Assembly: GCA_035470765.1 (NCBI GenBank)
Contig: DATIQP010000201.1
Coordinates: 1 to 42,979, forward strand
Length of the DNA stretch: 42,979 nucleotides
Direction: 5' to 3'
DNA from: Polyangiaceae bacterium
GTDB taxonomy: Bacteria > Myxococcota_A > Polyangia > Polyangiales > Polyangiaceae
The position numbers and the translations under genes are program-made. Every line of letters begins with the position of its first letter. The first letter of the stretch is position 1. The notes beneath the pieces were generated by a model. The model was given only the letters and a program-made list of their open reading frames with translations. It ran no database searches and had not been told where the DNA came from. Shown one piece after another: positions 13,582 to 40,394 of this stretch.

Positions 13582-14985
13582 TCACTTCGGGGTCATCATC
13601 ACGGCGCCGCCGCTCGTCCAGTAGACGTTCGCGGCGTCGATGGCGATCCTCTCGGGGTCCGTCTGCCCGATGGCCAGAACGACGGGCGTGCCGCCGGTCA
13701 GCGGGACTTTCATCACCAAGCCGCCGTAGTAGTCGACCCAATAGGCGGCGCTGGAGTCGACGGCGATGTCGTTCGGCCCGTCCTGACCCGACGCGAGTGT
13801 GGTCGTCCCTCCGCCGGAGAGGGTCATCTCGACGACGACGCCCAAATCCGTCCAGTACAGGTTCGTCGAGTCCACCGCGAGCTGGAAGGGTGAGGACGCA
13901 TATCCCAGGCTCGTCGATGCGCCGCCACTCAGGGCAACCTTGGAAATGGCGCCCACCGTCGACCAGTAGACGTTCGTTGCATCGACCGCGATCCCGTACA
14001 CCGGCTGCTGCGAGGTCGCCAAGGTGACGGGCGTGCCGCCGCCGATCGACACCTTCAGCACGCTCTTGTCACTCGTCCAGTAGACGCTCGCTCCGTCGAC
14101 CGCGATGTCTCCCGGGAGCTGTGGATTCGAGGCGAGCACCACGGGTGTGCCCCCCGCGAGCGCGACCTTCGTGACGCCGCCGGCGTTGCCCGTGTTCAGC
14201 CAGTATGCGCTCGTCGAATCGACGGCGATACTCGCGGGAGAAGGCTGCCCTGCGGCGATTGTCTCCGGAGTGCCGCCACCGACCGCGATTCTCCTGACGA
14301 GGCCGTCGACGTAGTCGGTCCAGTAGACGTACGCGCCGTCGGCCGCGAGGCCCGACGCGTTCTCGCCCGCGGCGAGCACGACGGGCGTCGCCAAGCATTG
14401 ACACGACCATCCTCCGGACACGCACGTGCAAGCCGCCGACGAGCTGGCGTCGCAGCCGTGGTCGCTGGCGCAGGTGTCGGTCCCGGTGCACGACTGCCCG
14501 TCCACGACGAGCTGCGGGCTCGGGCATCCGGGCGGCGGACCGGCCTCCACGCAGCTCTGCTCCTGGCAACGGAAGGCAGTGCCATCGCAGGTGCACGTGT
14601 CGCATTCGGTGCCGGGCCGGCGGCAAACGAGCCCCGCTTGGCTGCAGGCAGCGCCGGGCGCCACCCCGCCCTGAAGGGCGAAGTGCGTCCCGTCGCATGC
14701 GAGCGCGGGGCCTGGGCATTGGCCGCCGGCGCTGGGCGAACAAACGAGCCCGGCTTGCGTGCACGGATCTCCAAGCGCGGCGACCTGCGGACCGAACTGC
14801 GTCCCGTCGCACACGAGCGACTTGCACGCCGTCCCATCCGGCCCCGGACACGTCAACCCAACTTGGCTTTCGCGACAGGGATCGCCTTCGTGCACGCCCG
14901 AACAGTCGCCGGCAGTGCAGCGTGTGCTGAGGACAACGAGCCCGAGCGCGCTCGACACGACCAGAAGGAAGGGCCGTTTCCTCAC
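13582..14985 (-). CDS. Secreted protein: Cys-rich N-terminal region plus six-bladed YWTD-like beta-propeller
   Basis: Has a signal peptide (MRKRPFLLVVSSALGLVVLS) and about 180 aa with around 30 Cys (repeated LVC/CDGT units). Six roughly 40-aa repeats follow, of the form IAVD(x)3(V/L)YWT...V(x)KV(x)L(x)GGTP(x)(x)LA. Confidence 0.8.
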   Translation of the reverse strand: MRKRPFLLVVSSALGLVVLSTRCTAGDCSGVHEGDPCRESQVGLTCPGPDGTACKSLVCDGTQFGPQVAALGDPCTQAGLVCSPSAGGQCPGPALACDGTHFALQGGVAPGAACSQAGLVCRRPGTECDTCTCDGTAFRCQEQSCVEAGPPPGCPSPQLVVDGQSCTGTDTCASDHGCDASSSAACTCVSGGWSCQCLATPVVLAAGENASGLAADGAYVYWTDYVDGLVRRIAVGGGTPETIAAGQPSPASIAVDSTSAYWLNTGNAGGVTKVALAGGTPVVLASNPQLPGDIAVDGASVYWTSDKSVLKVSIGGGTPVTLATSQQPVYGIAVDATNVYWSTVGAISKVALSGGASTSLGYASSPFQLAVDSTNLYWTDLGVVVEMTLSGGGTTTLASGQDGPNDIAVDSSAAYWVDYYGGLVMKVPLTGGTPVVLAIGQTDPERIAIDAANVYWTSGGAVMMTPK

Positions 14986-19154: not shown

Positions 19155-21023
<1,869 letters not shown>

Positions 21024-21050
21024 GGCTCACTCACCTTCCTGTTCGATCGA

Positions 21051-21240
21051 GGGCCACCCCGGGCTGAAGCCCGGGGCAGGCAAAAACACCGTGATGGGAT
21101 CGCACTTCAAGCCCGCCTTCGGCGGGCTCCCGCTCGAGCCGAGCCGCGAGAAGCTCCGTGCGAGTCCGCCGAAGGCGGACTTTGGATGGCTTCGTACGAT
21201 GAGGTCTTCGCCTGCCCCGGGCTTCAGCCCGGGGTGGCCC
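21051..21240. repeat. Composite palindromic intergenic element, copy 1 (MITE/REP-BIME-like), 190 bp
   Basis: Has perfect 31-bp terminal inverted repeats: GGGCCACCCCGGGCTGAAGCCCGGGGCAGGC at 21051-21081 and its exact reverse complement at 21210-21240. Each terminus is itself a hairpin (CCCCGGGC-TGAA-GCCCGGGG). There are two internal 8-bp-stem hairpins: AGCCCGCC-TTC-GGCGGGCT (21110-21128) and AGTCCGCC-GAA-GGCGGACT (21163-21181). A second copy lies at 39047-39276. Confidence 0.75.
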
Positions 21241-21250
21241 AACTCACCGA

Positions 21251-24988
<3,738 letters not shown>

Positions 24989-25055
24989 CTTTTGCCTCGC
25001 TTTTCCCTGGGTTCCAGGATGGTTCGAAGGCCAACTGCTCAGCCAGTAGCCAACT

Positions 25056-25071
25056 GACTGACGTGTCAGTC
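25056..25071. promoter_or_regulatory. 16-bp palindrome GACTGAC-GT-GTCAGTC, candidate TetR operator
   Basis: A perfect 7+2+7 inverted repeat in the 151-bp divergent intergenic region between the activase gene (start 24988) and the TetR gene (start 25140). It is preceded by a direct repeat of GCCAACTG (25030-25037 and 25049-25056). Confidence 0.35.
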
Positions 25072-25139
25072 GAGGCAAGGCTAGAGGCGGATGAGCCAGG
25101 GGGCAACGGTAAAAAAGCTGGTAGAGTGCAGCCCTCCCC

Positions 25140-25766
25140 GTGAGCACCAAAGGCCCCGAAACCGGCGAACGAAAACGGGCCGCCGGCGGCGTCGACAAGG
25201 CGACGCGGCGCCAGCAGATCCTCCAGTCCGCCCGGGACGTCTTCGCCAAGCACGGCTACCACGCGGCCAAGGTCGAGGACATCGTCCACGCGGCCGGCGT
25301 GGCGCGCGGCACCTTCTACCTCTACTTCGAGGACAAGCGGGCCATCTTCGAGGAGATCGTCGACAGGCTGCTCGTCCGCTTCGGCATGGCGATCCAGCGC
25401 GTCGACCCGACGGGCGACGTCACCGAGGAGGTGAAGGCGAACATGCGCCGCATCATTCACCTCCTCATCGAGGAGCGCCTGACGACGAAGATGCTGCTGA
25501 GCGACGCGAACGGCGTCGACCCGGCGTTCGATCGCAAGATCCACTCGTTCTTCGAGCAGGTGCGCGCGCTGCTCGAGGAGGCGCTCCTCGACGGTCAGGA
25601 GCTCGGCATCGTCGCCGCCGGCAACGCGCGCATGCAGGCTATCTTCGTCATCGGCGCGCTCAAGGAGATCATGAACCAGGTGGTCGTGCGCGGCTGGGAC
25701 GATCCCGAGGGCGAGATCGTCGAGGCGCTCTTCGCGTTCCTGCGCGAGGGCGTCCTGTCGCTCTAG
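25140..25766 (+). CDS. TetR/AcrR-family transcriptional regulator
   Basis: Has the N-terminal HTH RRQQILQSARDVFAKHGYHAAKVEDIVHAAGVARGTFYLYFEDKRAIF. GTG start. Divergent from the activase operon. Confidence 0.9.
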   Translation: MSTKGPETGERKRAAGGVDKATRRQQILQSARDVFAKHGYHAAKVEDIVHAAGVARGTFYLYFEDKRAIFEEIVDRLLVRFGMAIQRVDPTGDVTEEVKANMRRIIHLLIEERLTTKMLLSDANGVDPAFDRKIHSFFEQVRALLEEALLDGQELGIVAAGNARMQAIFVIGALKEIMNQVVVRGWDDPEGEIVEALFAFLREGVLSL

Positions 25767-25767
25767 A

Positions 25768-26961
25768 TCAGAGCGCCAGGAGGACGACCTGGTTGGTCGT
25801 GAACGGCGTCGTCTGACCGAGCTGCGTGCCCTCGCTCCAGTAGAGGGTGGAACCGCCGGCGACGAGGTGCCAGGGGAAGTTGCGCTTGGCGGCGATGGTC
25901 GTCGGCGACGAGCAGCTCCCGAGCTGACACGTCTGGATCGAGCCGCTGTTGGGCGACGGAGTGCTGCCCGAGGAGTTGACCGCGTAGAAGAGCCGGCCGT
26001 TGGCGCCGATGACGATGTCGCCGATCGCGCCCGGAGAGGTCGGAATCACGTGCGTCGGGGTGTTGCTGCAGCCCGCGAGCGGACACGAGTCGACGAGCCC
26101 GGTGACGGCGTCGCTCCAGTAGACGGTGTGGTTGAAGATTGCGATGTCGATCACGGTGGTCGCGGGCGTGGAGAGCAGCGTCGGGTTGCTACAGCCCGAG
26201 GTGTTGCACGCGTAGACGCCATAGCCTGGAGCGCAGAACGCGACGTCGCCCGCGTCGTCCACCGCGCTCACGCTGAGCGGATGGCTCGCGCTGGCGAACG
26301 TCGACGGGCCGCCGCCGTCGAGCGGGAACTGCCGGATCACTCCCCCTCCGGCGGCGTACCCCGTCCCCAGGTGGACGAAGGTGGAGCTCGCCGCGTTCAT
26401 GTCGAAGAGGTGCCCGCTGCCCGTGCCGAGGCAGCTGCCGACCGGACACGCTCCCACGAACCCGTAGGCACCCCCCGCTACCAGGCCGTAGTTGACGTAG
26501 ACCATCCACGGATTGGAGTTCTGCGTGAAGGGGGCGATCCCGACGATGTTCTGCGCGCCCGACTGACCGTAGACCAAGGATGTGATGGGCTGCGGGCCGC
26601 TACCGCAGCCGGAGCGGGGACATGCGTAGACGACGTCGCTGCCCATGTAGAGCCTGGTGTCGTCCAGCGCGAGCGAGTCGATGGCGAGGTTCGGCTGCAT
26701 GGACGTGAAGACGGCGGGCTGGCAGAAGGCGTTGTTGCACGCCCCGCCCTGGCACGAGTGGCCGCACGCGCCGCAATTGTCAGGGCTCGACTGCGTGTCG
26801 CCGCACCCGACGGCTCCGTCCCCGGCGTCTCCGCCTGAGACGATGGGCGCGTCCGGCGAGGTGGCATCACCCGTCGGGGAGGCGTCGCCGCCGACGAATT
26901 GATCCGCGTTGCACGCGAAGAGGACCGTTGCCAAGCTCACCCAAAGCCAACCGCGCTTCAT
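25768..26961 (-). CDS. Secreted Cys-rich repeat (propeller-like) protein
   Basis: Start set at the ATG at 26961, which gives the signal MKRGWLWVSLATVLFAC. A Cys knot follows (CGDTQSSPDNCGACGHSCQGGACNNAFC), then repeated units ending in C(P/N)xxGC(S/G) with VYWSD / LYWSE motifs. The upstream 94 codons of the track ORF are low-complexity. Confidence 0.7.
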   Translation of the reverse strand: MKRGWLWVSLATVLFACNADQFVGGDASPTGDATSPDAPIVSGGDAGDGAVGCGDTQSSPDNCGACGHSCQGGACNNAFCQPAVFTSMQPNLAIDSLALDDTRLYMGSDVVYACPRSGCGSGPQPITSLVYGQSGAQNIVGIAPFTQNSNPWMVYVNYGLVAGGAYGFVGACPVGSCLGTGSGHLFDMNAASSTFVHLGTGYAAGGGVIRQFPLDGGGPSTFASASHPLSVSAVDDAGDVAFCAPGYGVYACNTSGCSNPTLLSTPATTVIDIAIFNHTVYWSDAVTGLVDSCPLAGCSNTPTHVIPTSPGAIGDIVIGANGRLFYAVNSSGSTPSPNSGSIQTCQLGSCSSPTTIAAKRNFPWHLVAGGSTLYWSEGTQLGQTTPFTTNQVVLLAL

Positions 26962-27883: not shown

Positions 27884-28729
27884 ATGCCGTTTCCTTCGCT
27901 TCGTCGCTTCTTCTTGGCGCTGCCCGGCATCGCGCTCGCCGCGGCGCTCGTGTCCGCGTGCGGCGCCCGCGCCGACCTGCAGGATCCCGATCAGCTCGTG
28001 GTCTCCGACGGCGGCCTGCCCGACGGCGTGAAGCCTCCGCCCAACACGTGCGGCAACGGGACCTGCGACGGCACCGAGAGCTGCTCCAACTGTCCTCAGG
28101 ACTGCGGCTTCTGCAAGACGTGTGGCGACGGCACCTGCAGCGGCAGCGAGACCTGCGTGGGCTGCCCGCAGGATTGCGGCGCGTGCCCCTCGTGCGGCAA
28201 CGGCTTCTGCGACTCGACGGAGAGCTGCACCACCTGTCCGCAGGACTGCGGCAAGTGCGCCGCGTGCGGCGACGGCATCTGCCAGAGCAACGAGAGCTGC
28301 AACAACTGCCCCGACGATTGCGGCAAGTGCGCGGGCTGCGGCGACGGCCTGTGCGGCAGCACCGAGACGTGCATCTCGTGCCCGCACGACTGCGGCGTCT
28401 GCTCCTTCTGCGGCAACAACAAGTGCGAGACCTACGAGACGTGCACCAACTGCCCACAGGACTGCGGCCAGTGCACGACGCTGAGCTGCTTCCAGGCGTT
28501 CACCTGCGCGATCAAGTGCATCCAGCTCCAGGGCAACCCGCCCAGCGTGAGCGTCTCGTGCGTGGCGAACTGCCTGTCCGAGGGTTGCCCCGACACGCAG
28601 TTCTTCTTCGATCAGGCGTTCAACTGCGCGGTGCAGCAGGCCTTCGGCGGCTGCGGCGGCGACTTCAACTGCATCCAGCAGGCGTGCGCCACCGAGATCG
28701 CGGCCTGCCTCGGGTCGACCTGCCCCTGA
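27884..28729 (+). CDS. Lipoprotein with six tandem 24-aa six-cysteine repeats plus a Cys-rich C-terminal domain
   Basis: Start at the ATG at 27884 (MPFPSLRRFFLALPGIALAAALVSACG). Six copies of CG(D/N)GxCxxxE(S/T)CxxCPxDCGxCxx follow, then an 83-aa domain with 10 more Cys. Confidence 0.8.
   Translation: MPFPSLRRFFLALPGIALAAALVSACGARADLQDPDQLVVSDGGLPDGVKPPPNTCGNGTCDGTESCSNCPQDCGFCKTCGDGTCSGSETCVGCPQDCGACPSCGNGFCDSTESCTTCPQDCGKCAACGDGICQSNESCNNCPDDCGKCAGCGDGLCGSTETCISCPHDCGVCSFCGNNKCETYETCTNCPQDCGQCTTLSCFQAFTCAIKCIQLQGNPPSVSVSCVANCLSEGCPDTQFFFDQAFNCAVQQAFGGCGGDFNCIQQACATEIAACLGSTCP
28049..28480 (+). repeat. 6 x 72-bp in-frame tandem repeat (coding)
   Basis: The period is exactly 72 bp (24 codons). 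Units start TGCGGCAACGGG / TGTGGCGACGGC / TGCGGCAACGGC / TGCGGCGACGGC / TGCGGCGACGGC / TGCGGCAACAAC, and each contains TG(T/C)CC(N)CA(G/C)GA(C/T)TGCGG. Confidence 0.85.
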
Positions 28730-37651: not shown

Positions 37652-38998
37652 ATGCCGTTGCCTCCCGGCCCCGCGACCCTCCCCGCCGTGCTCCTGTGGC
37701 GCTGGATCCGCCACCCGTTCGAGCTGATGGACCACTGCCACGCTCGCTACGGCGACATCTTCAAGCTCCGCTTCTTCATGCTCCCGCAGGGGCTGGTCGT
37801 CCTCTCCGATCCGCTCGACATCAAGAAGGTCTTCGCGCTCGGCCCGGACGAGGCGCACGCCGGCGAGGCCAACATCGTGCTCAGGCCCTTCCTCGGCGAG
37901 CACTCGCTCCTCTCGCTCGACGGCGCCGAGCACCTGCGCCACCGCAAGATGATCCTGCCCGCGTTCCACGGCGAGCGCATGCACGCGTACGGCCGCACCA
38001 TGATGGAGCTCGCGCGCGACTCGATCGATCGCTGGCCCGTGGGCCGGCGCTTCGCGGTCCACCGGCCGATGCAGTCCATCACGCTGCAGGTGATCCTCCG
38101 CACCGTCTTCGGCGTGCAAGAAGGGCCGCTGTTCTCCGAGCTCTCCGACGTGCTCGCGAAGGAGCTCGACGTGAGCTCGTGGCCGGGGCTGCTCTTCCCC
38201 GTGATGCAGCACGACCTCGGCCCGCTCAGCCCGTGGGGCCGCTGGACGCGCTACCGCGACCGCGCGAGCGCCCTCATCCGGGCCGAGATCCGCAAGGCGC
38301 GCGCGGCGGGCGACCCGTCGCGCACCGACGTCCTCGCGATGATGATCGCCGCGAGGGACGACCAGGGCCGCCCGCTCGGGGAGGACGAGATCCACGACGA
38401 GCTCGTCACCCTGCTCGTCGCCGGCCACGAGACGACGGCGACGTCGCTCGCCTGGGCGCTGCGATGGATCCTGCCGGACCCGGGCCTCTTGCGGCGCCTG
38501 CGGGCGGAGATCGAGAGCGCCGAGGGCGATCCGGGGAAGATCGCGAAGCTCGAGCTGCTCGACGCGACGGTCAAGGAGACCCTGCGCCTCCAGCCCGTCG
38601 TCCCGATGGTGGGCCGGGTGCTGCACGCGCCCCTCGAGGTGCACGGCTGGGAGCTGCCGCCGGGCACCGTCGTCGCGCCGTCGATCTACCTCGTGCACCG
38701 CCGGCCTTCGCTCTACCCGGAGCCCGAGCGCTTCAACCCCGACCGGTTCTCGTCCTTCAAGCCCGCCGCCTGGGAGTACTTGCCGTTCGGCGGCGGGCTG
38801 CGCAGGTGCGTCGGCGCGTCGTTCGCCCAGTACGAGATGAAGATGGTCCTCGCGTCTCTCTTGCCGCGCGTCGAGATGCGCCTGGCGACCGATCGGATCC
38901 GCGTCGTGCGGCGCAGCATCACGCTCACCCCGTCGGAGGGCCTGCCGGTCATCGTCACCGAGAAGCGGCCTGCCGCGACGGCACGGCGCGCCGCCTAG
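37652..38998 (+). CDS. Cytochrome P450
   Basis: Has the PPGP N-terminal hinge, the I-helix LLVAGHETTA, ETLR (ExxR) and the heme-thiolate loop FGGGLRRCVGASFA (FxxGxRxCxG). Start at the ATG at 37652. Confidence 0.9.
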   Translation: MPLPPGPATLPAVLLWRWIRHPFELMDHCHARYGDIFKLRFFMLPQGLVVLSDPLDIKKVFALGPDEAHAGEANIVLRPFLGEHSLLSLDGAEHLRHRKMILPAFHGERMHAYGRTMMELARDSIDRWPVGRRFAVHRPMQSITLQVILRTVFGVQEGPLFSELSDVLAKELDVSSWPGLLFPVMQHDLGPLSPWGRWTRYRDRASALIRAEIRKARAAGDPSRTDVLAMMIAARDDQGRPLGEDEIHDELVTLLVAGHETTATSLAWALRWILPDPGLLRRLRAEIESAEGDPGKIAKLELLDATVKETLRLQPVVPMVGRVLHAPLEVHGWELPPGTVVAPSIYLVHRRPSLYPEPERFNPDRFSSFKPAAWEYLPFGGGLRRCVGASFAQYEMKMVLASLLPRVEMRLATDRIRVVRRSITLTPSEGLPVIVTEKRPAATARRAA

Positions 38999-39046
38999 GT
39001 CCACGGCCCCGGTCGCCTCTCTCCCAGTCGCCGCCCTCGGGAATTT

Positions 39047-39276
39047 GGGCCACCCCGGGCTGAAGCCCGGGGCAGGCGAAGAACGCATCCCGTGATCCCG
39101 ATTCAAGTCCGCCGTCCGGCGGACTCGCAGCACACCTCACGCGTTTGCCGCTGGATCCCGCCGGTCGGCGCCCATCGCTTCGCACAAGGTCAATGAGAGC
39201 CCGCCGCAGGCGGGCTTTGGGTGGGCCGACCATCGACGGTCTTTTGCCTGCCCCGGGCTTTAGCCCGGGGCGGCCC
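39047..39276. repeat. Composite palindromic intergenic element, copy 2, 230 bp
   Basis: The left terminus (39047-39077) is identical over 31/31 nt to copy 1. The right terminus (39246-39276) is GCCTGCCCCGGGCTTTAGCCCGGGGCGGCCC, matching the inverted repeat at 29/31. Internal hairpins are AGTCCGCC-GTCC-GGCGGACT (39106-39125) and AGCCCGCC-GCA-GGCGGGCT (39198-39216). Sub-terminal blocks shared with copy 1 are CGTGAT..GAT..TTCAAG and CTTTGG.TGG...GGTCTT. Confidence 0.75.
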
Positions 39277-39281
39277 CATCC

Positions 39282-40394
39282 CTACATGATCGAAAAGCGG
39301 CGGGTCGCCATCGCGGCCCTCACCCGCTCGGTGGCGAGGCGCACCGCGGCCTCCCGCGGGATCTCGCGGCGCGATGCGACGTCGTCGAGCACGGCCTTCG
39401 TGTTCGCGCGGATCTTCTCGGCGATGGCCTCGAACGCCGCGCCGCGCGTGGCGCCGTGGTACTCCATCGCCGCGCAGATGACGCCGCCGGCGTTGGCGAT
39501 GAAGTCCGGGACGACGAGCACGCCGCGATCATGGAGCATGCGCTCGGCGCCGACGGTGAACGGGATGTTCGCGCCCTCGAGCACGAGCCTCGTCCTGAGG
39601 CGCCCGGCGTTCTCCTCGCGCACGACGTCGGGGCGCGCCGCGGGGATCCAGATGTCGCACTCGACGTCGAGGATCGCCTCGCCGTCGAGCTTCTCGGCGC
39701 GGGCATAGTCGCGCACGCTCCCGCCCTGCTGGTTGATGCGCGCGAGCTCCTCGACATCGAGCCCGCCGGCCGCGCGGATGGCGCCGCGCGAATCGCTCGC
39801 GCCGACGAGGACGCAGCCTGCCGCGACGAGGAAGCGCGCGGCGTGCTTGCCCACCGCGCCGAAGCCCTGCACCGCTACGCGCGCGCCGCGGAGCTCGAGC
39901 TTGCAGTACGGGGCCGCGACCTCCGCCGCGTGGCGGATGCCGAAGCCCGTGGCGCCGAGCGTGTCGAGCGGGATCCCACCGAGGGCCTCGGGCAGGCCCA
40001 CCGCCCGGCCGATCTCGTCCTCGATCCACGCCATGCACCCCTCGTCGGTCCCCATGTCGGGCCCGAAGACGTAGTCCGCCTCGTTGCGCAGCGCGTGAGC
40101 GAAGGCCCGGATCATCGCCTCCTTGCGGTCGGGCCGCATGTGCGGATCGCCGCGGAGGACCGACTTCCCCCCGCCGTGCGCGAGGCCGGCGGCGGCGTTC
40201 TTCATGGTCATGGCGCGCGCAAGGCGGAAGCACTCCTCGGTGCCCACGTCGACGGCCATGCGCAGCCCGCCGATGGCCGGGCCTCGCGCGACGTTGTCGA
40301 CGACGAGCGTGCCGCGCAGGCCGATCGACGGCTCGTGCACGTGGATGATCTTGGCTGGGCCCAGCTCGCCGGCGAAACGGAATGCATCTTCCAT
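39282..40394 (-). CDS. Glu/Leu/Phe/Val-family amino-acid dehydrogenase
   Basis: 370 aa with GPAIGGLRM, the catalytic-Lys block GLAHGGGKSVL and the Rossmann motif VAVQGFGAVGKH. Confidence 0.9.
   Translation of the reverse strand: MEDAFRFAGELGPAKIIHVHEPSIGLRGTLVVDNVARGPAIGGLRMAVDVGTEECFRLARAMTMKNAAAGLAHGGGKSVLRGDPHMRPDRKEAMIRAFAHALRNEADYVFGPDMGTDEGCMAWIEDEIGRAVGLPEALGGIPLDTLGATGFGIRHAAEVAAPYCKLELRGARVAVQGFGAVGKHAARFLVAAGCVLVGASDSRGAIRAAGGLDVEELARINQQGGSVRDYARAEKLDGEAILDVECDIWIPAARPDVVREENAGRLRTRLVLEGANIPFTVGAERMLHDRGVLVVPDFIANAGGVICAAMEYHGATRGAAFEAIAEKIRANTKAVLDDVASRREIPREAAVRLATERVRAAMATRRFSIM

What the first reader, a model, noticed from the sequence alone, without database searches (positions are those of the whole stretch)
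21051..21240. Structured 190-bp composite palindromic element with perfect 31-bp terminal inverted repeats, sitting inside an operon
**What the sequence shows.**
- The 227-bp gap between the fused-activase gene and its partner gene is almost entirely filled by an element bounded by GGGCCACCCCGGGCTGAAGCCCGGGGCAGGC and its exact reverse complement.
- Each terminus is itself a GC hairpin, with an 8-bp stem CCCCGGGC/GCCCGGGG and a TGAA or TTCA loop.
- The interior holds two 8-bp-stem hairpins that are inverted copies of each other: AGCCCGCC-TTC-GGCGGGCT and AGTCCGCC-GAA-GGCGGACT. The whole unit can therefore fold into a long multi-hairpin cruciform or RNA structure.
- A second copy with an identical left terminus lies 18 kb away at 39047-39276, so this is a dispersed repeat family and not a local terminator.
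- There is no transposase and I see no obvious target-site duplication. It therefore looks more like a REP/BIME- or MITE-type element, or a structured ncRNA module.

**Interpretation.** Both flanking genes are on the minus strand, so the element would be transcribed within the operon mRNA. There it could act as an RNA stabiliser, a processing site, or an uncoupler of expression of the two genes. This last point is inference.
Basis: partly seen in the sequence, partly recalled or inferred. Interest (0 to 1): 0.7.

Follow-up and report, generated by a model that had tools for sequence, protein, structure and literature searches.

The report
Miniature IS200-family hairpin transposon copy
The 190-bp palindromic block is a transposase-less miniature copy of an IS200-type "hairpin" insertion sequence that landed between two normally abutting, co-transcribed genes of a Polyangiaceae-like myxobacterium; it is a previously undescribed family of a known kind of mobile DNA, not a new regulatory RNA.

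Summary
Element 21051-21240 has perfect 31-bp inverted termini, each a GC hairpin, and two internal 8-bp hairpins. A second copy lies at 39047-39276.

It belongs to a real dispersed family. 46 contigs from 8 metagenomes carry the terminus. 28 of them hold complete 165-241-bp copies with the same four-hairpin layout.

In L084 (588 bp) and five further lineages, the same ends flank a 134-152-aa Y1/HUH transposase (Pfam Y1_Tnp; NCBIfam IS200/IS605 equivalog). The short copies match only about 85 nt of its left end and about 78 nt of its right end. The window element is therefore a non-autonomous (PATE/MITE-like) derivative. It was presumably moved in trans by single-strand "peel-and-paste" transposition.

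Supporting points:
- There is no target-site duplication.
- Every stem change but one is compensatory.
- Orthologous operons in three relatives are empty, with the two genes 5, 31 or -1 bp apart.

Atypical points:
- The hairpin ends are true inverted repeats, which the IS200/IS605 family is said to lack.
- There are two hairpins per end.
- Short copies outnumber transposase copies about 10:1, as in REPIN/RAYT systems.

An RNA-level role in the operon remains untested. Element orientation shows no bias. Interest is moderate.

The parts
21051..21240 (-). Copy 1 of the non-autonomous element (190 bp). Its left-end to right-end polarity, defined by the transposase direction in full-length relatives, runs on the window's minus strand. 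This is the direction of operon transcription.
21210..21240 (-). Left-end (LE) terminal hairpin and 31-bp inverted terminus of copy 1. It has an 8-bp GC stem plus a 3-bp outer stem.
21163..21181 (-). LE internal 'T-type' hairpin, AGTCCGCC-N3-GGCGGACT. In full-length elements it lies upstream of tnpA.
21129..21162 (-). Variable centre (34 bp). It sits where tnpA lies in the 588-bp autonomous relative.
21110..21128 (-). Right-end (RE) internal 'C-type' hairpin, AGCCCGCC-N3-GGCGGGCT. In full-length elements it encodes the TnpA C-terminus EPAEGGL plus the stop codon.
21051..21081 (-). RE terminal hairpin and 31-bp inverted terminus of copy 1.
39047..39276 (+). Copy 2 (230 bp), with polarity on the plus strand. 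Parts: LE terminus 39047-39077, T-type hairpin 39106-39125, C-type hairpin 39198-39216, RE terminus 39246-39276. It lies between convergent genes for a cytochrome P450 (stop codon ends at 38998) and a Glu/Leu dehydrogenase (stop codon at 39282-39284).
21251..25249 (-). Upstream flanking gene: fused BcrAD_BadFG plus DUF2229 activase. Its TGA stop lies 10 nt from the element's left end.
19155..21023 (-). Downstream flanking gene: 622-aa partner protein, intact and 84-88% identical to orthologues. Its own ribosome-binding site AGGAAGGTGA (21031-21040) is preserved between the element and the ATG.

Best explanation
The element is a non-autonomous, internally deleted derivative of a small IS200-group insertion sequence. 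In IS200/IS605 terms it is a PATE (palindrome-associated transposable element), or loosely a MITE.

The full-length form is about 590 bp. Its layout is: terminal hairpin, a spacer of about 27 nt, 'T-type' hairpin, tnpA, 'C-type' hairpin overlapping the tnpA stop, a spacer of about 27 nt, terminal hairpin. The short form keeps about 85 nt of the left end and about 78 nt of the right end, joined by a variable centre.

**Shown**
- The short and full-length forms share the same ends.
- The transposase is a Y1/HUH enzyme.
- There is no target-site duplication.
- The hairpin stems are maintained by compensatory changes.
- The orthologous operon sites in relatives are empty.

**Inferred, by analogy with IS608 and ISDra2**
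- A TnpA dimer made by a full-length copy elsewhere in the genome binds the folded end hairpins on single-stranded DNA, for example on the lagging-strand template.
- It excises the element as a single-stranded circle and inserts it without duplication. Insertion here favours T-rich/A-rich junctions, which in this 70%-GC genome occur mainly in the tiny spacers beside stop codons.
- In this window the element landed between the activase stop codon and the ribosome-binding site of the partner gene. That turned a spacer of about 37 bp into 227 bp.
- Any effect on the operon mRNA would be a by-product of insertion, not the reason the element exists.
For: **1. Family.** The terminus occurs in 46 contigs from 8 metagenomes, mostly as +/- pairs 140-240 bp apart. 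Thirty complete short copies, including the two in the window, have an invariant layout. The internal hairpin starts at position 58-61, and in 26 of 30 copies one hairpin is C-type and the other T-type.

**2. Autonomous parent.**
- L084 1466-2053 has the same ends around a 137-aa ORF. The ORF hits Pfam Y1_Tnp at 3.7e-18 and the NCBIfam IS200/IS605 equivalog at 63.4 bits against a cutoff of 55.
- Its best solved relatives are IS608 TnpA (2e-09) and ISDra2 TnpA.
- The HUH motif (HVHVV) and the Y-x-x-x-Q motif are readable in the sequence.
- More tnpA copies with these ends occur in L091 and L093, L115, L116 and L117, L121 and L122. They span 48-95% identity.

**3. Deletion relationship.** Short copies align to the insertion sequence only at positions 1 to about 83-115 and about 473-512 to 588. 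Window copy 2 matches the L084 ends at 85-90%.

**4. Matching subfamilies.** The L091-type terminus (loop-closing T-A replaced by C-G) and its spacer are shared by that contig's tnpA copy and by short copies from the same sample, L091 and L103.

**5. Structure under selection.**
- In 81 arms, 12 stem pairs are 99-100% paired. Every stem variant but one is a double compensatory change: G-C to A-T at two positions, and T-A to C-G.
- Divergent lineages keep the hairpins with different stems.
- Termini are 95% identical between copies, while spacers are 60-63% identical against a shuffled baseline of 47%. Spacer length is fixed at 26-29 nt.

**6. No target-site duplication** in 26 oriented copies.

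**7. Empty sites.** In L118, L119 and L120 the partner protein is 86-88% identical. The two genes there are 5, 31 and -1 bp apart, and no element is present.
Against: - The IS200/IS605 family is described as lacking terminal inverted repeats (PMC7290912). This family has 31-37-bp inverted termini.
- No clear tetra- or pentanucleotide target is seen. There is only T at position -1 in 18 of 26 copies and A at +1 in 16 of 26.
- The hairpin foot lies only about 2 nt from the element end. In IS608 the cleavage sites are 19 and 10 nt away, so the cleavage geometry must differ.
- No tnpA lies in the 43-kb window, and the source genome could not be retrieved. A trans-acting transposase in this organism is therefore assumed, not shown.
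- Copies differ strongly in their spacers. That fits long persistence as well as it fits recent selfish spread.
- Mobility itself was not observed.
Confidence: 0.8

Rival explanations
1. This is a REPIN/RAYT-like domesticated system. A single-copy, vertically kept IS200-type transposase disseminates the four-hairpin modules. The modules persist because the host uses them, for example as bidirectional terminators, insulators or mRNA 3'-end stabilisers between tightly packed genes. This rival differs from the best explanation in why the elements persist, not in what they derive from.
For: - Short copies outnumber tnpA copies about 10:1 among contigs recovered with the same terminus pattern: 28 short copies against 3 tnpA-bearing, one of them truncated.
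- Each tnpA protein cluster is seen on only 1-2 contigs.
- The hairpin ends are in inverted orientation, as around RAYT genes.
- Hairpins are nearly invariant while spacers drift, even between the two copies within the window: termini 94-100% identical, spacers 62-66%.
- 13 of 20 classifiable copies sit between convergent genes that have almost no other spacer.
- Bertels et al. 2017 describe an 'IS200 Group 3' with no duplicates but abundant flanking 16-mers (PMC5581495).
Against: - The transposase is of the IS200 type, not the RAYT type. It meets the NCBIfam IS200 equivalog, and it does not hit E. coli TnpA-REP among solved structures at E <= 1.
- There is no GTAG or CGTC tag at the hairpin feet (sequence; criterion from PMC8266576).
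- Left and right spacers within a copy are not complementary, so the unit is not a REPIN-style single long hairpin by design.
- tnpA-bearing copies sit at unrelated loci in different lineages: beside YkuD, inside a MoxR/BatA operon, and after a VWA gene. That looks like an insertion sequence.
- The hairpins are not followed by U-tracts.
- Short convergent spacers are normal in these genomes (gene tables).
- Copy number per genome is unknown because the data are metagenomic.
Confidence: 0.2
2. This is a structured cis-regulatory or non-coding RNA module. It would be selected at this position to uncouple, attenuate or stabilise expression of the activase gene and its partner gene.
For: - Both flanking genes are on the minus strand, so the element is transcribed within the operon.
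- The RNA fold is extremely stable, z = -11.3.
- Hairpin stems show compensatory changes.
Against: - Orthologous operons in three relatives lack the element and have abutting or overlapping genes.
- The same module is scattered next to unrelated genes in 46 contigs. Most copies lie between convergent genes. In tandem contexts the element is sense in 2 cases and antisense in 3.
- There is no Rfam match. The best sub-threshold hit scores 27.8 bits against a gathering threshold of 128.
- There is no terminator- or promoter-like site in the element.
- The compensatory changes are explained equally well by DNA-hairpin recognition by TnpA.
Confidence: 0.05
3. This is a classical terminal-inverted-repeat MITE mobilised by a DDE cut-and-paste transposase.
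For: It has perfect 31-bp terminal inverted repeats, small size, no ORF and many dispersed copies.
Against: - No target-site duplication of any length in 26 oriented copies.
- The only gene ever found between these ends is a Y1/HUH transposase.
- The termini are themselves hairpins kept by compensatory changes. That is the signature of single-strand hairpin recognition.
Confidence: 0.03

Closest known systems
IS200/IS605 family insertion sequences (IS200 group, tnpA only) and their ends-only derivatives, the PATEs (palindrome-associated transposable elements)
   Same: - The transposase is a Y1/HUH enzyme with HUH and catalytic-Tyr motifs.
- Hairpins at both ends are needed for recognition.
- There is no target-site duplication.
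- The autonomous element is very small, about 590 bp.
- The short ends-only copies lack the ORF (family description in PMC7290912).
   Different: - The two ends are true 31-37-bp inverted repeats. The family is described as having none.
- Each end carries two hairpins at a fixed spacing of about 27 nt.
- The hairpin foot lies about 2 nt from the element boundary.
- No clear 4-5-nt target was found.
- Short copies greatly outnumber tnpA copies.
REP / BIME / REPIN elements with their RAYT (TnpA-REP) transposase ('REPtron')
   Same: - GC-rich extragenic palindromes occur in inverted pairs.
- A Y1 transposase gene is flanked by the same palindromes in inverted orientation.
- Short repeats far outnumber transposase genes.
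- They lie at gene 3' ends.
(PMC6006769; PMC5581495)
   Different: - There is no GTAG or CGTC tag.
- The transposase scores as IS200-type, not RAYT.
- The unit is 165-241 bp with four hairpins and non-complementary spacers. It is not a REP doublet forming one long hairpin.
- tnpA copies lie at different loci in different lineages.
'IS200 Group 3' of Bertels, Gallie & Rainey 2017 (RAYT-like IS200 clade)
   Same: Both have IS200-like sequence combined with abundant flanking repeats and no detected duplicates of the gene.
   Different: Membership could not be tested. No sequences or taxa of that group were available in the text read.
Salmonella IS200 left end (from my own knowledge: Beuzon et al. 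1999)
   Same: IS200 has a terminal perfect hairpin near nt 12-34 and a second interior stem-loop upstream of tnpA. Here the terminal hairpin is at nt 3-31 and the interior hairpin at nt 60-79.
   Different: In IS200 the hairpins are described at the left end, as a terminator and as a structure that occludes the ribosome-binding site. They are not described as a mirrored pair at both ends. This comparison was not tested here.

Membership tests
IS200/IS605 (IS200 group) | Encodes a Y1 HUH transposase (TnpA) with an HUH motif and a catalytic Tyr | tested here: met
   This holds for full-length relatives, not for the window copy. Pfam Y1_Tnp hits at 3.7e-18. The NCBIfam IS200/IS605 equivalog scores 63.4 bits against a cutoff of 55. 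IS608 TnpA hits at 2e-09. HVHVV and AYVERQ are present in the sequence.
IS200/IS605 (IS200 group) | Hairpin (imperfect palindrome) structures at both ends | tested here: met
   There are two hairpins per end. They are conserved with compensatory changes across lineages whose TnpA is 48-95% identical.
IS200/IS605 (IS200 group) | No target-site duplication on insertion | tested here: met
   None was seen in 26 oriented copies.
IS200/IS605 (IS200 group) | No terminal inverted repeats | tested here: not met
   The termini are inverted repeats of 31 bp (perfect) to 37 bp (95%). L121 has 64-nt arms at 88%.
IS200/IS605 (IS200 group) | Insertion 3' of a specific tetra- or pentanucleotide | tested here: inconclusive
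   Only a bias was found: T at -1 in 18 of 26 copies, T at -2 in 13 of 26, and A at +1 in 16 of 26. No fixed 4-5-mer emerged.
IS200/IS605 (IS200 group) | Single-stranded circular intermediate and strand-specific 'peel and paste' transposition | not testable with these tools
   This needs in vitro or in vivo assays.
PATE / MITE-type non-autonomous derivative | Carries only the ends of an autonomous element, has no ORF, and occurs as multiple dispersed copies | tested here: met
   Homology to the L084 insertion sequence is confined to positions 1 to about 85 and about 510 to 588. There are 30 complete short copies, and 46 contigs carry the terminus.
PATE / MITE-type non-autonomous derivative | Mobilised in trans by the cognate transposase | not testable with these tools
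   Indirect evidence only: an empty orthologous site in three relatives, and insertion-sequence and short-copy ends that match within a subfamily.
REP / REPIN-RAYT (REPtron) | Conserved GTAG (or CGTC) tetranucleotide at the foot of the palindrome | tested here: not met
   The feet read GGGCCA/CAGGC and TCA-AG/CT-C. The criterion is from PMC8266576 and PMC3733652.
REP / REPIN-RAYT (REPtron) | The transposase belongs to the RAYT / TnpA-REP clade | tested here: not met
   Its only NCBIfam hit is the IS200 equivalog. The solved relatives found are IS608, ISDra2 and Sulfolobus TnpA. No TnpA-REP chain appears at E <= 1.
REP / REPIN-RAYT (REPtron) | Single-copy transposase gene with many repeats genome-wide | tested here: inconclusive
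   The ratio of short to tnpA-bearing copies is about 10:1 among contigs caught by the same pattern. The data are metagenomic and no complete genome was available.
REP / REPIN-RAYT (REPtron) | Two inverted REPs that form one long hairpin (REPIN) | tested here: inconclusive
   The termini and internal hairpins are inverted, and the minimum-free-energy fold pairs them. But the spacers are no more complementary within a copy than between copies.
DDE-type TIR MITE | Terminal inverted repeats plus flanking target-site duplication | tested here: not met
   Inverted termini are present, but there is no duplication.
Any Rfam RNA family | Score at or above the family's gathering threshold | tested here: not met
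   There are 0 hits in the whole window. The best sub-threshold hit scores 27.8 bits against 128.
Intrinsic terminator | GC hairpin followed by a T-run | tested here: not met
   No terminator-like site falls inside 21051-21240 on either strand.

The most novel reading that the evidence does not exclude
The family may be an evolutionary intermediate between selfish IS200 elements and domesticated RAYT/REPIN systems, or an independent repeat of that transition. An IS200-type transposase would be kept at about one copy per genome in Polyangia. It would disseminate a four-hairpin module with inverted ends. Both host and element would then maintain these modules as insulators or terminators in the near-zero spacers between genes. 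In some cases the module even supplies the stop codon of the flanking genes.
Probability: 0.2. Interest if true: 0.6.

Novelty: new variant of a known kind. Interest (0 to 1): 0.4.

Why it matters
- **Annotation.** The result turns an unexplained "structured palindrome in an operon" into an identified mobile element with a known parent and a testable mechanism. That helps annotation of GC-rich myxobacterial genomes and MAGs. These repeats break assemblies and create spurious long ORFs. They also sometimes rewrite the last codons of genes.
- **Transposon biology.** The family combines an IS200-type enzyme with REPtron-like features: inverted hairpin ends, two hairpins per end, and a large excess of short copies. 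It could therefore show how hairpin-recognising transposases become REP/REPIN systems.
- **Natural experiment.** The insertion separates two normally overlapping or abutting, and presumably translationally coupled, genes by 227 bp of very stable structure. Comparing expression with element-free relatives would show what such insertions do to operons.

Tried and rejected
- **Source genome.** I tried to count copies in the source genome. The exact 30-mer is absent from the 185,579 GTDB representative genomes. A looser 20-specified-base pattern gave only 68 scattered single matches with no homology beyond the pattern, so they are chance hits. The window's 622-aa protein is not on record as an exact sequence. 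The source genome was therefore not recovered, and per-genome copy numbers are unknown.
- **Long-hairpin idea.** I tested whether the left and right spacers of one copy pair with each other, as in a REPIN. Within-copy complementarity is no higher than between copies.
- **Third hairpin idea.** By eye, each spacer seemed to hold a third, covarying hairpin. Spacer folding energies are barely better than shuffles, with mean z of -0.3 to -0.8. I dropped the idea.
- **Stop-codon targeting idea.** Copies lie 1-29 nt from stop codons. But convergent spacers in relatives' gene tables are generally -26 to +46 bp. The closeness is probably genome compactness plus a T/A preference.
- **Other database searches.** Rfam at gathering and E-value thresholds and PLSDB plasmids gave nothing.
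- **Literature.** A search for myxobacterial REP elements found nothing. Di Nocera's REP survey does not mention Myxococcota.
- **Weak evidence not relied on.** tblastn remnants of the TnpA C-terminus in short copies are weak (E = 0.02 to 8). Most reflect only the hairpin-encoded EPAEGGL.

Full report
**1. Observation**

- The sequence is as described. The 31-mer GGGCCACCCCGGGCTGAAGCCCGGGGCAGGC lies at 21051-21081, and its exact reverse complement lies at 21210-21240.
- The same 31-mer starts a second element at 39047, whose far end (39246-39276) has 2 mismatches. That is four matches against 0.00 expected in shuffles.
- The inverted arms extend to 37 nt at 95%.
- Each terminus is a hairpin with an 8-bp GC stem and a 4-nt loop. 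Three outer pairs (GCC/GGC) lie across a small internal loop.
- The interior holds AGCCCGCC-TTC-GGCGGGCT (21110-21128) and AGTCCGCC-GAA-GGCGGACT (21163-21181).
- The element fills 190 of the 227 bp between two minus-strand genes. Upstream is a fused BcrAD_BadFG/DUF2229 activase gene (21251-25249). Downstream is a 622-aa partner gene (19155-21023).
- Long ORFs that cross the element in other frames have no Pfam hits. They are GC-rich artefacts.
- The unit folds at -145.7 kcal/mol as RNA, z = -11.3.
- Copy 2 lies between convergent genes for a P450 and a Glu/Leu dehydrogenase.
- A profile HMM of the family finds no further copies or fragments in the window.

**2. A real dispersed family**

- The GTDB representative genomes hold no copy.
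- A metagenome scan with the terminus found 46 contigs from 8 samples, 29 of them from Ga0316628. Most carry +/- pairs of termini.
- None of these contigs is the window itself. They are about 70% GC and share only occasional 67-82% gene-level similarity with it.
- Thirty complete short copies of 165-241 bp, counting the two in the window, share one architecture: a 31-nt terminal hairpin, a 26-29-nt spacer, an internal hairpin starting at position 58-61, a centre of variable length and sequence (11-86 nt), a second internal hairpin, a spacer, and a terminal hairpin.
- In 26 of 30 copies one internal hairpin is 'C-type' (AGCCCGCC/GGCGGGCT) and the other is 'T-type' (AGTCCGCC/GGCGGACT). The element therefore has polarity. 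Window copy 2 on the plus strand corresponds to copy 1 on the minus strand.

**3. The parent element**

- In L084 the same ends enclose 588 bp with a 137-aa ORF.
- The ORF is a Y1/HUH transposase. Evidence: Pfam Y1_Tnp at 3.7e-18, the NCBIfam IS200/IS605 equivalog above its cutoff, and IS608 and ISDra2 TnpA as the closest solved proteins. The E. coli REP-associated TnpA is not hit at E <= 1.
- HVHVV (the HUH motif) and AYVERQ (the catalytic Tyr motif) are present.
- The T-type hairpin lies upstream of tnpA, at the left end. The C-type hairpin overlaps the tnpA stop and encodes the C-terminal EPAEGGL, which many homologues conserve.
- tblastn found two more tnpA copies among the pattern-derived contigs: L093 (N-terminally truncated) and L091 (59% identical).
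- A protein search found 16 clusters. Their contigs show the same two-plus-two hairpin, inverted-end architecture around tnpA at 95%, 61%, 49% and 48% identity (L115, L116, L121, L117). L122 (52%) keeps the right end, and a DDE insertion sequence has replaced its left end.
- An exhaustive search gives 462 50%-identity clusters at E <= 1e-10. The clade is modest but not tiny.
- Short copies align to the L084 element only over positions 1 to about 83-115 and about 473-512 to 588. They are its ends joined by a variable filler, which is the definition of a PATE/MITE-type derivative (PMC7290912).
- The subfamily seen around the L091 tnpA has its loop-closing pair changed from T-A to C-G and its own spacer. 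It recurs in short copies from the same sample. This argues that short copies follow their own transposase lineage.

**4. Selection on structure**

- Across 81 arms the 12 stem pairs of the terminal hairpin are 99-100% paired.
- The only stem variants are double compensatory changes, plus a single G·G mismatch: G-C to A-T at pair 11/22 (L116, both ends), G-C to A-T at pair 13/20 (L080 and L097, and also L122), and T-A to C-G at pair 15/18 (L091, L103).
- Internal hairpins show the same behaviour: C-G or T-A between the two types, AGTCGGCC/GGCCGACT in L074, and AGTCCGAC/GTCGGACT in L117.
- Termini are 95% identical between copies. Spacers are only 60-63% identical, against a shuffled baseline of 47%. 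Spacer length is nevertheless fixed.
- Even the two copies within the window have 94-100% identical termini but only 62-66% identical spacers.
- Spacers of the two arms are not complementary and hold no significant third hairpin. The conserved objects are therefore four hairpins at fixed spacing. This is what a hairpin-binding protein would require.

**5. Insertion behaviour**

- No target-site duplication is present.
- Flanks show T at -1 in 18 of 26 copies and A at +1 in 16 of 26, in a 70%-GC background. The two are statistically independent of each other.
- I used a crude GC3-based gene call. Of 20 classifiable copies, 13 lie between convergent genes, 5 lie between tandem genes (2 sense, 3 antisense to transcription) and 2 lie in apparently divergent contexts. 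Stop codons lie 1-29 nt from the ends.
- Spacers between convergent genes are tiny in these genomes in any case (gene tables). I therefore do not claim stop-codon targeting.
- For window copy 1 there is a clear empty-site comparison. In three relatives the partner protein is 86-88% identical. The activase and partner genes there are 5 bp apart (L118), 31 bp apart (L119) or overlapping by 1 bp (L120), and those 50 kb contain no element.
- On the transcribed strand the window reads: TGA, then TCGGTGAGTT, then the element, then TCGATCGAAC, then AGGAAGGTGA, then GTGAGCC, then ATG. The insertion therefore fell in a spacer of about 37 bp and left the downstream ribosome-binding site intact.
- The element's left-to-right polarity matches the direction of operon transcription.

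**6. Mechanism**

The shown steps are listed under the best explanation. The rest is inferred from established IS608 and ISDra2 biochemistry (Ronning 2005; Barabas 2008; summarised in PMC7290912 and PMC8266576):
- A TnpA dimer supplied in trans binds the folded hairpins on single-stranded DNA.
- It cleaves at the ends, forms a single-stranded circle and integrates without duplication.

Which hairpin of each end is the binding site is unknown. How cleavage sites about 2 nt from the hairpin foot are selected is unknown. Whether the inverted symmetry lets either strand be used is also unknown.

**7. Comparison with known systems**

- The family meets the core IS200/IS605 criteria: a Y1 transposase, end hairpins and no target-site duplication. 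It violates the 'no terminal inverted repeats' description, and no defined 4-5-nt target could be shown.
- It resembles REPtron/REPIN systems in its inverted palindromic ends around the transposase gene and in the roughly 10:1 excess of short copies. It lacks the GTAG tag and a RAYT-type enzyme.
- Its tnpA copies sit at unrelated loci in different lineages, one of them inside a MoxR/BatA operon. That is insertion-sequence-like behaviour.
- Bertels et al. describe a RAYT-like 'IS200 Group 3'. This may be the nearest published concept, but membership could not be tested.
- No Rfam family, plasmid sequence or paper found describes this element.

**8. Verdict**

- The ncRNA and operon-regulation reading is unsupported but not excluded as a side effect.
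- Novelty: a new variant of a known kind.
- Interest is moderate at 0.4. The main value is better annotation and a possible intermediate between IS200 and REPIN/RAYT systems.

Noticed in passing
L071 862-1070; L076 461-649; L084 1466: Flanking ORFs with GC3 of 0.94-0.99 run into the element and end at the TGA or TAA in the terminal-hairpin loop (element positions 15-17). This adds tails such as '...APG*'. It happens on both sides of L071 and on one side of L076. In L084 the TAG stop of the YkuD gene uses the element's first G. The element can therefore replace the last codons and the stop codon of genes.
   Followed up: partly
L107 1535-1723: This 189-bp copy (63 codons) lies in frame inside an open frame of more than 1343 aa. 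The frame joins a protein ending in a MYXO-CTERM-like tail (GCSC...RRLRARQD) to a lipoprotein-signal-like N-terminus. No stop codon appears even when the element is removed in silico. It may be a read-through fusion or an assembly or frame artefact.
   Followed up: partly
window 21198-21250 versus 39037-39089: The two window copies share a 53-nt, 91% inverted match that extends 10 nt beyond the left terminus. The flanks TCGGTGAGTT and TCGGGAATTT agree at 7 of 10 positions. This may be chance, or a hint that the target or the true left boundary lies further out. Other copies do not show such flank conservation.
   Followed up: partly
L091 5945-6973: Elements are clustered here. A 171-bp short copy is followed 31 bp later by a tnpA copy whose upstream (left) end is replaced by, or abuts, another short copy of about 330 bp. 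This suggests that elements insert next to one another.
   Followed up: partly
L102 5076-5501: This 426-bp copy has an expanded centre that contains a hexanucleotide microsatellite. It translates as (PV)n in one frame and (GR/GQ)n in another.
   Followed up: no
L116 9878-10460: A full-length tnpA element (61% identical TnpA) sits on the opposite strand inside a MoxR-DUF58-BatA/VWA gene cluster. The autonomous form therefore also inserts within operon-like clusters.
   Followed up: no
proteins P0143, P0145, P0154, P0167 and others: About twenty of the best 150 relatives of the transposase are 250-320 aa long and contain two Y1 stretches. They may be tandem-domain, single-chain 'dimer' Y1 transposases.
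   Followed up: no
window 28047-28474 and 13596-14349: The first region holds a 72-bp-period tandem repeat, seen as four overlapping 212-nt units at 71-73% identity. The second holds degenerate direct repeats spaced about 111-243 bp apart, with a further copy at 26094. Both are unrelated to the finding (D1-D3).
   Followed up: no
L112 837-1352 and 1647-2561: Two genes have similar C-termini (...VVP...G.G....F). The first is followed by a left-end half-copy of the element. The second is followed by a solo, degenerate terminal hairpin. Solo terminal hairpins also occur in L114, and an internally deleted mini-copy occurs in L073.
   Followed up: no
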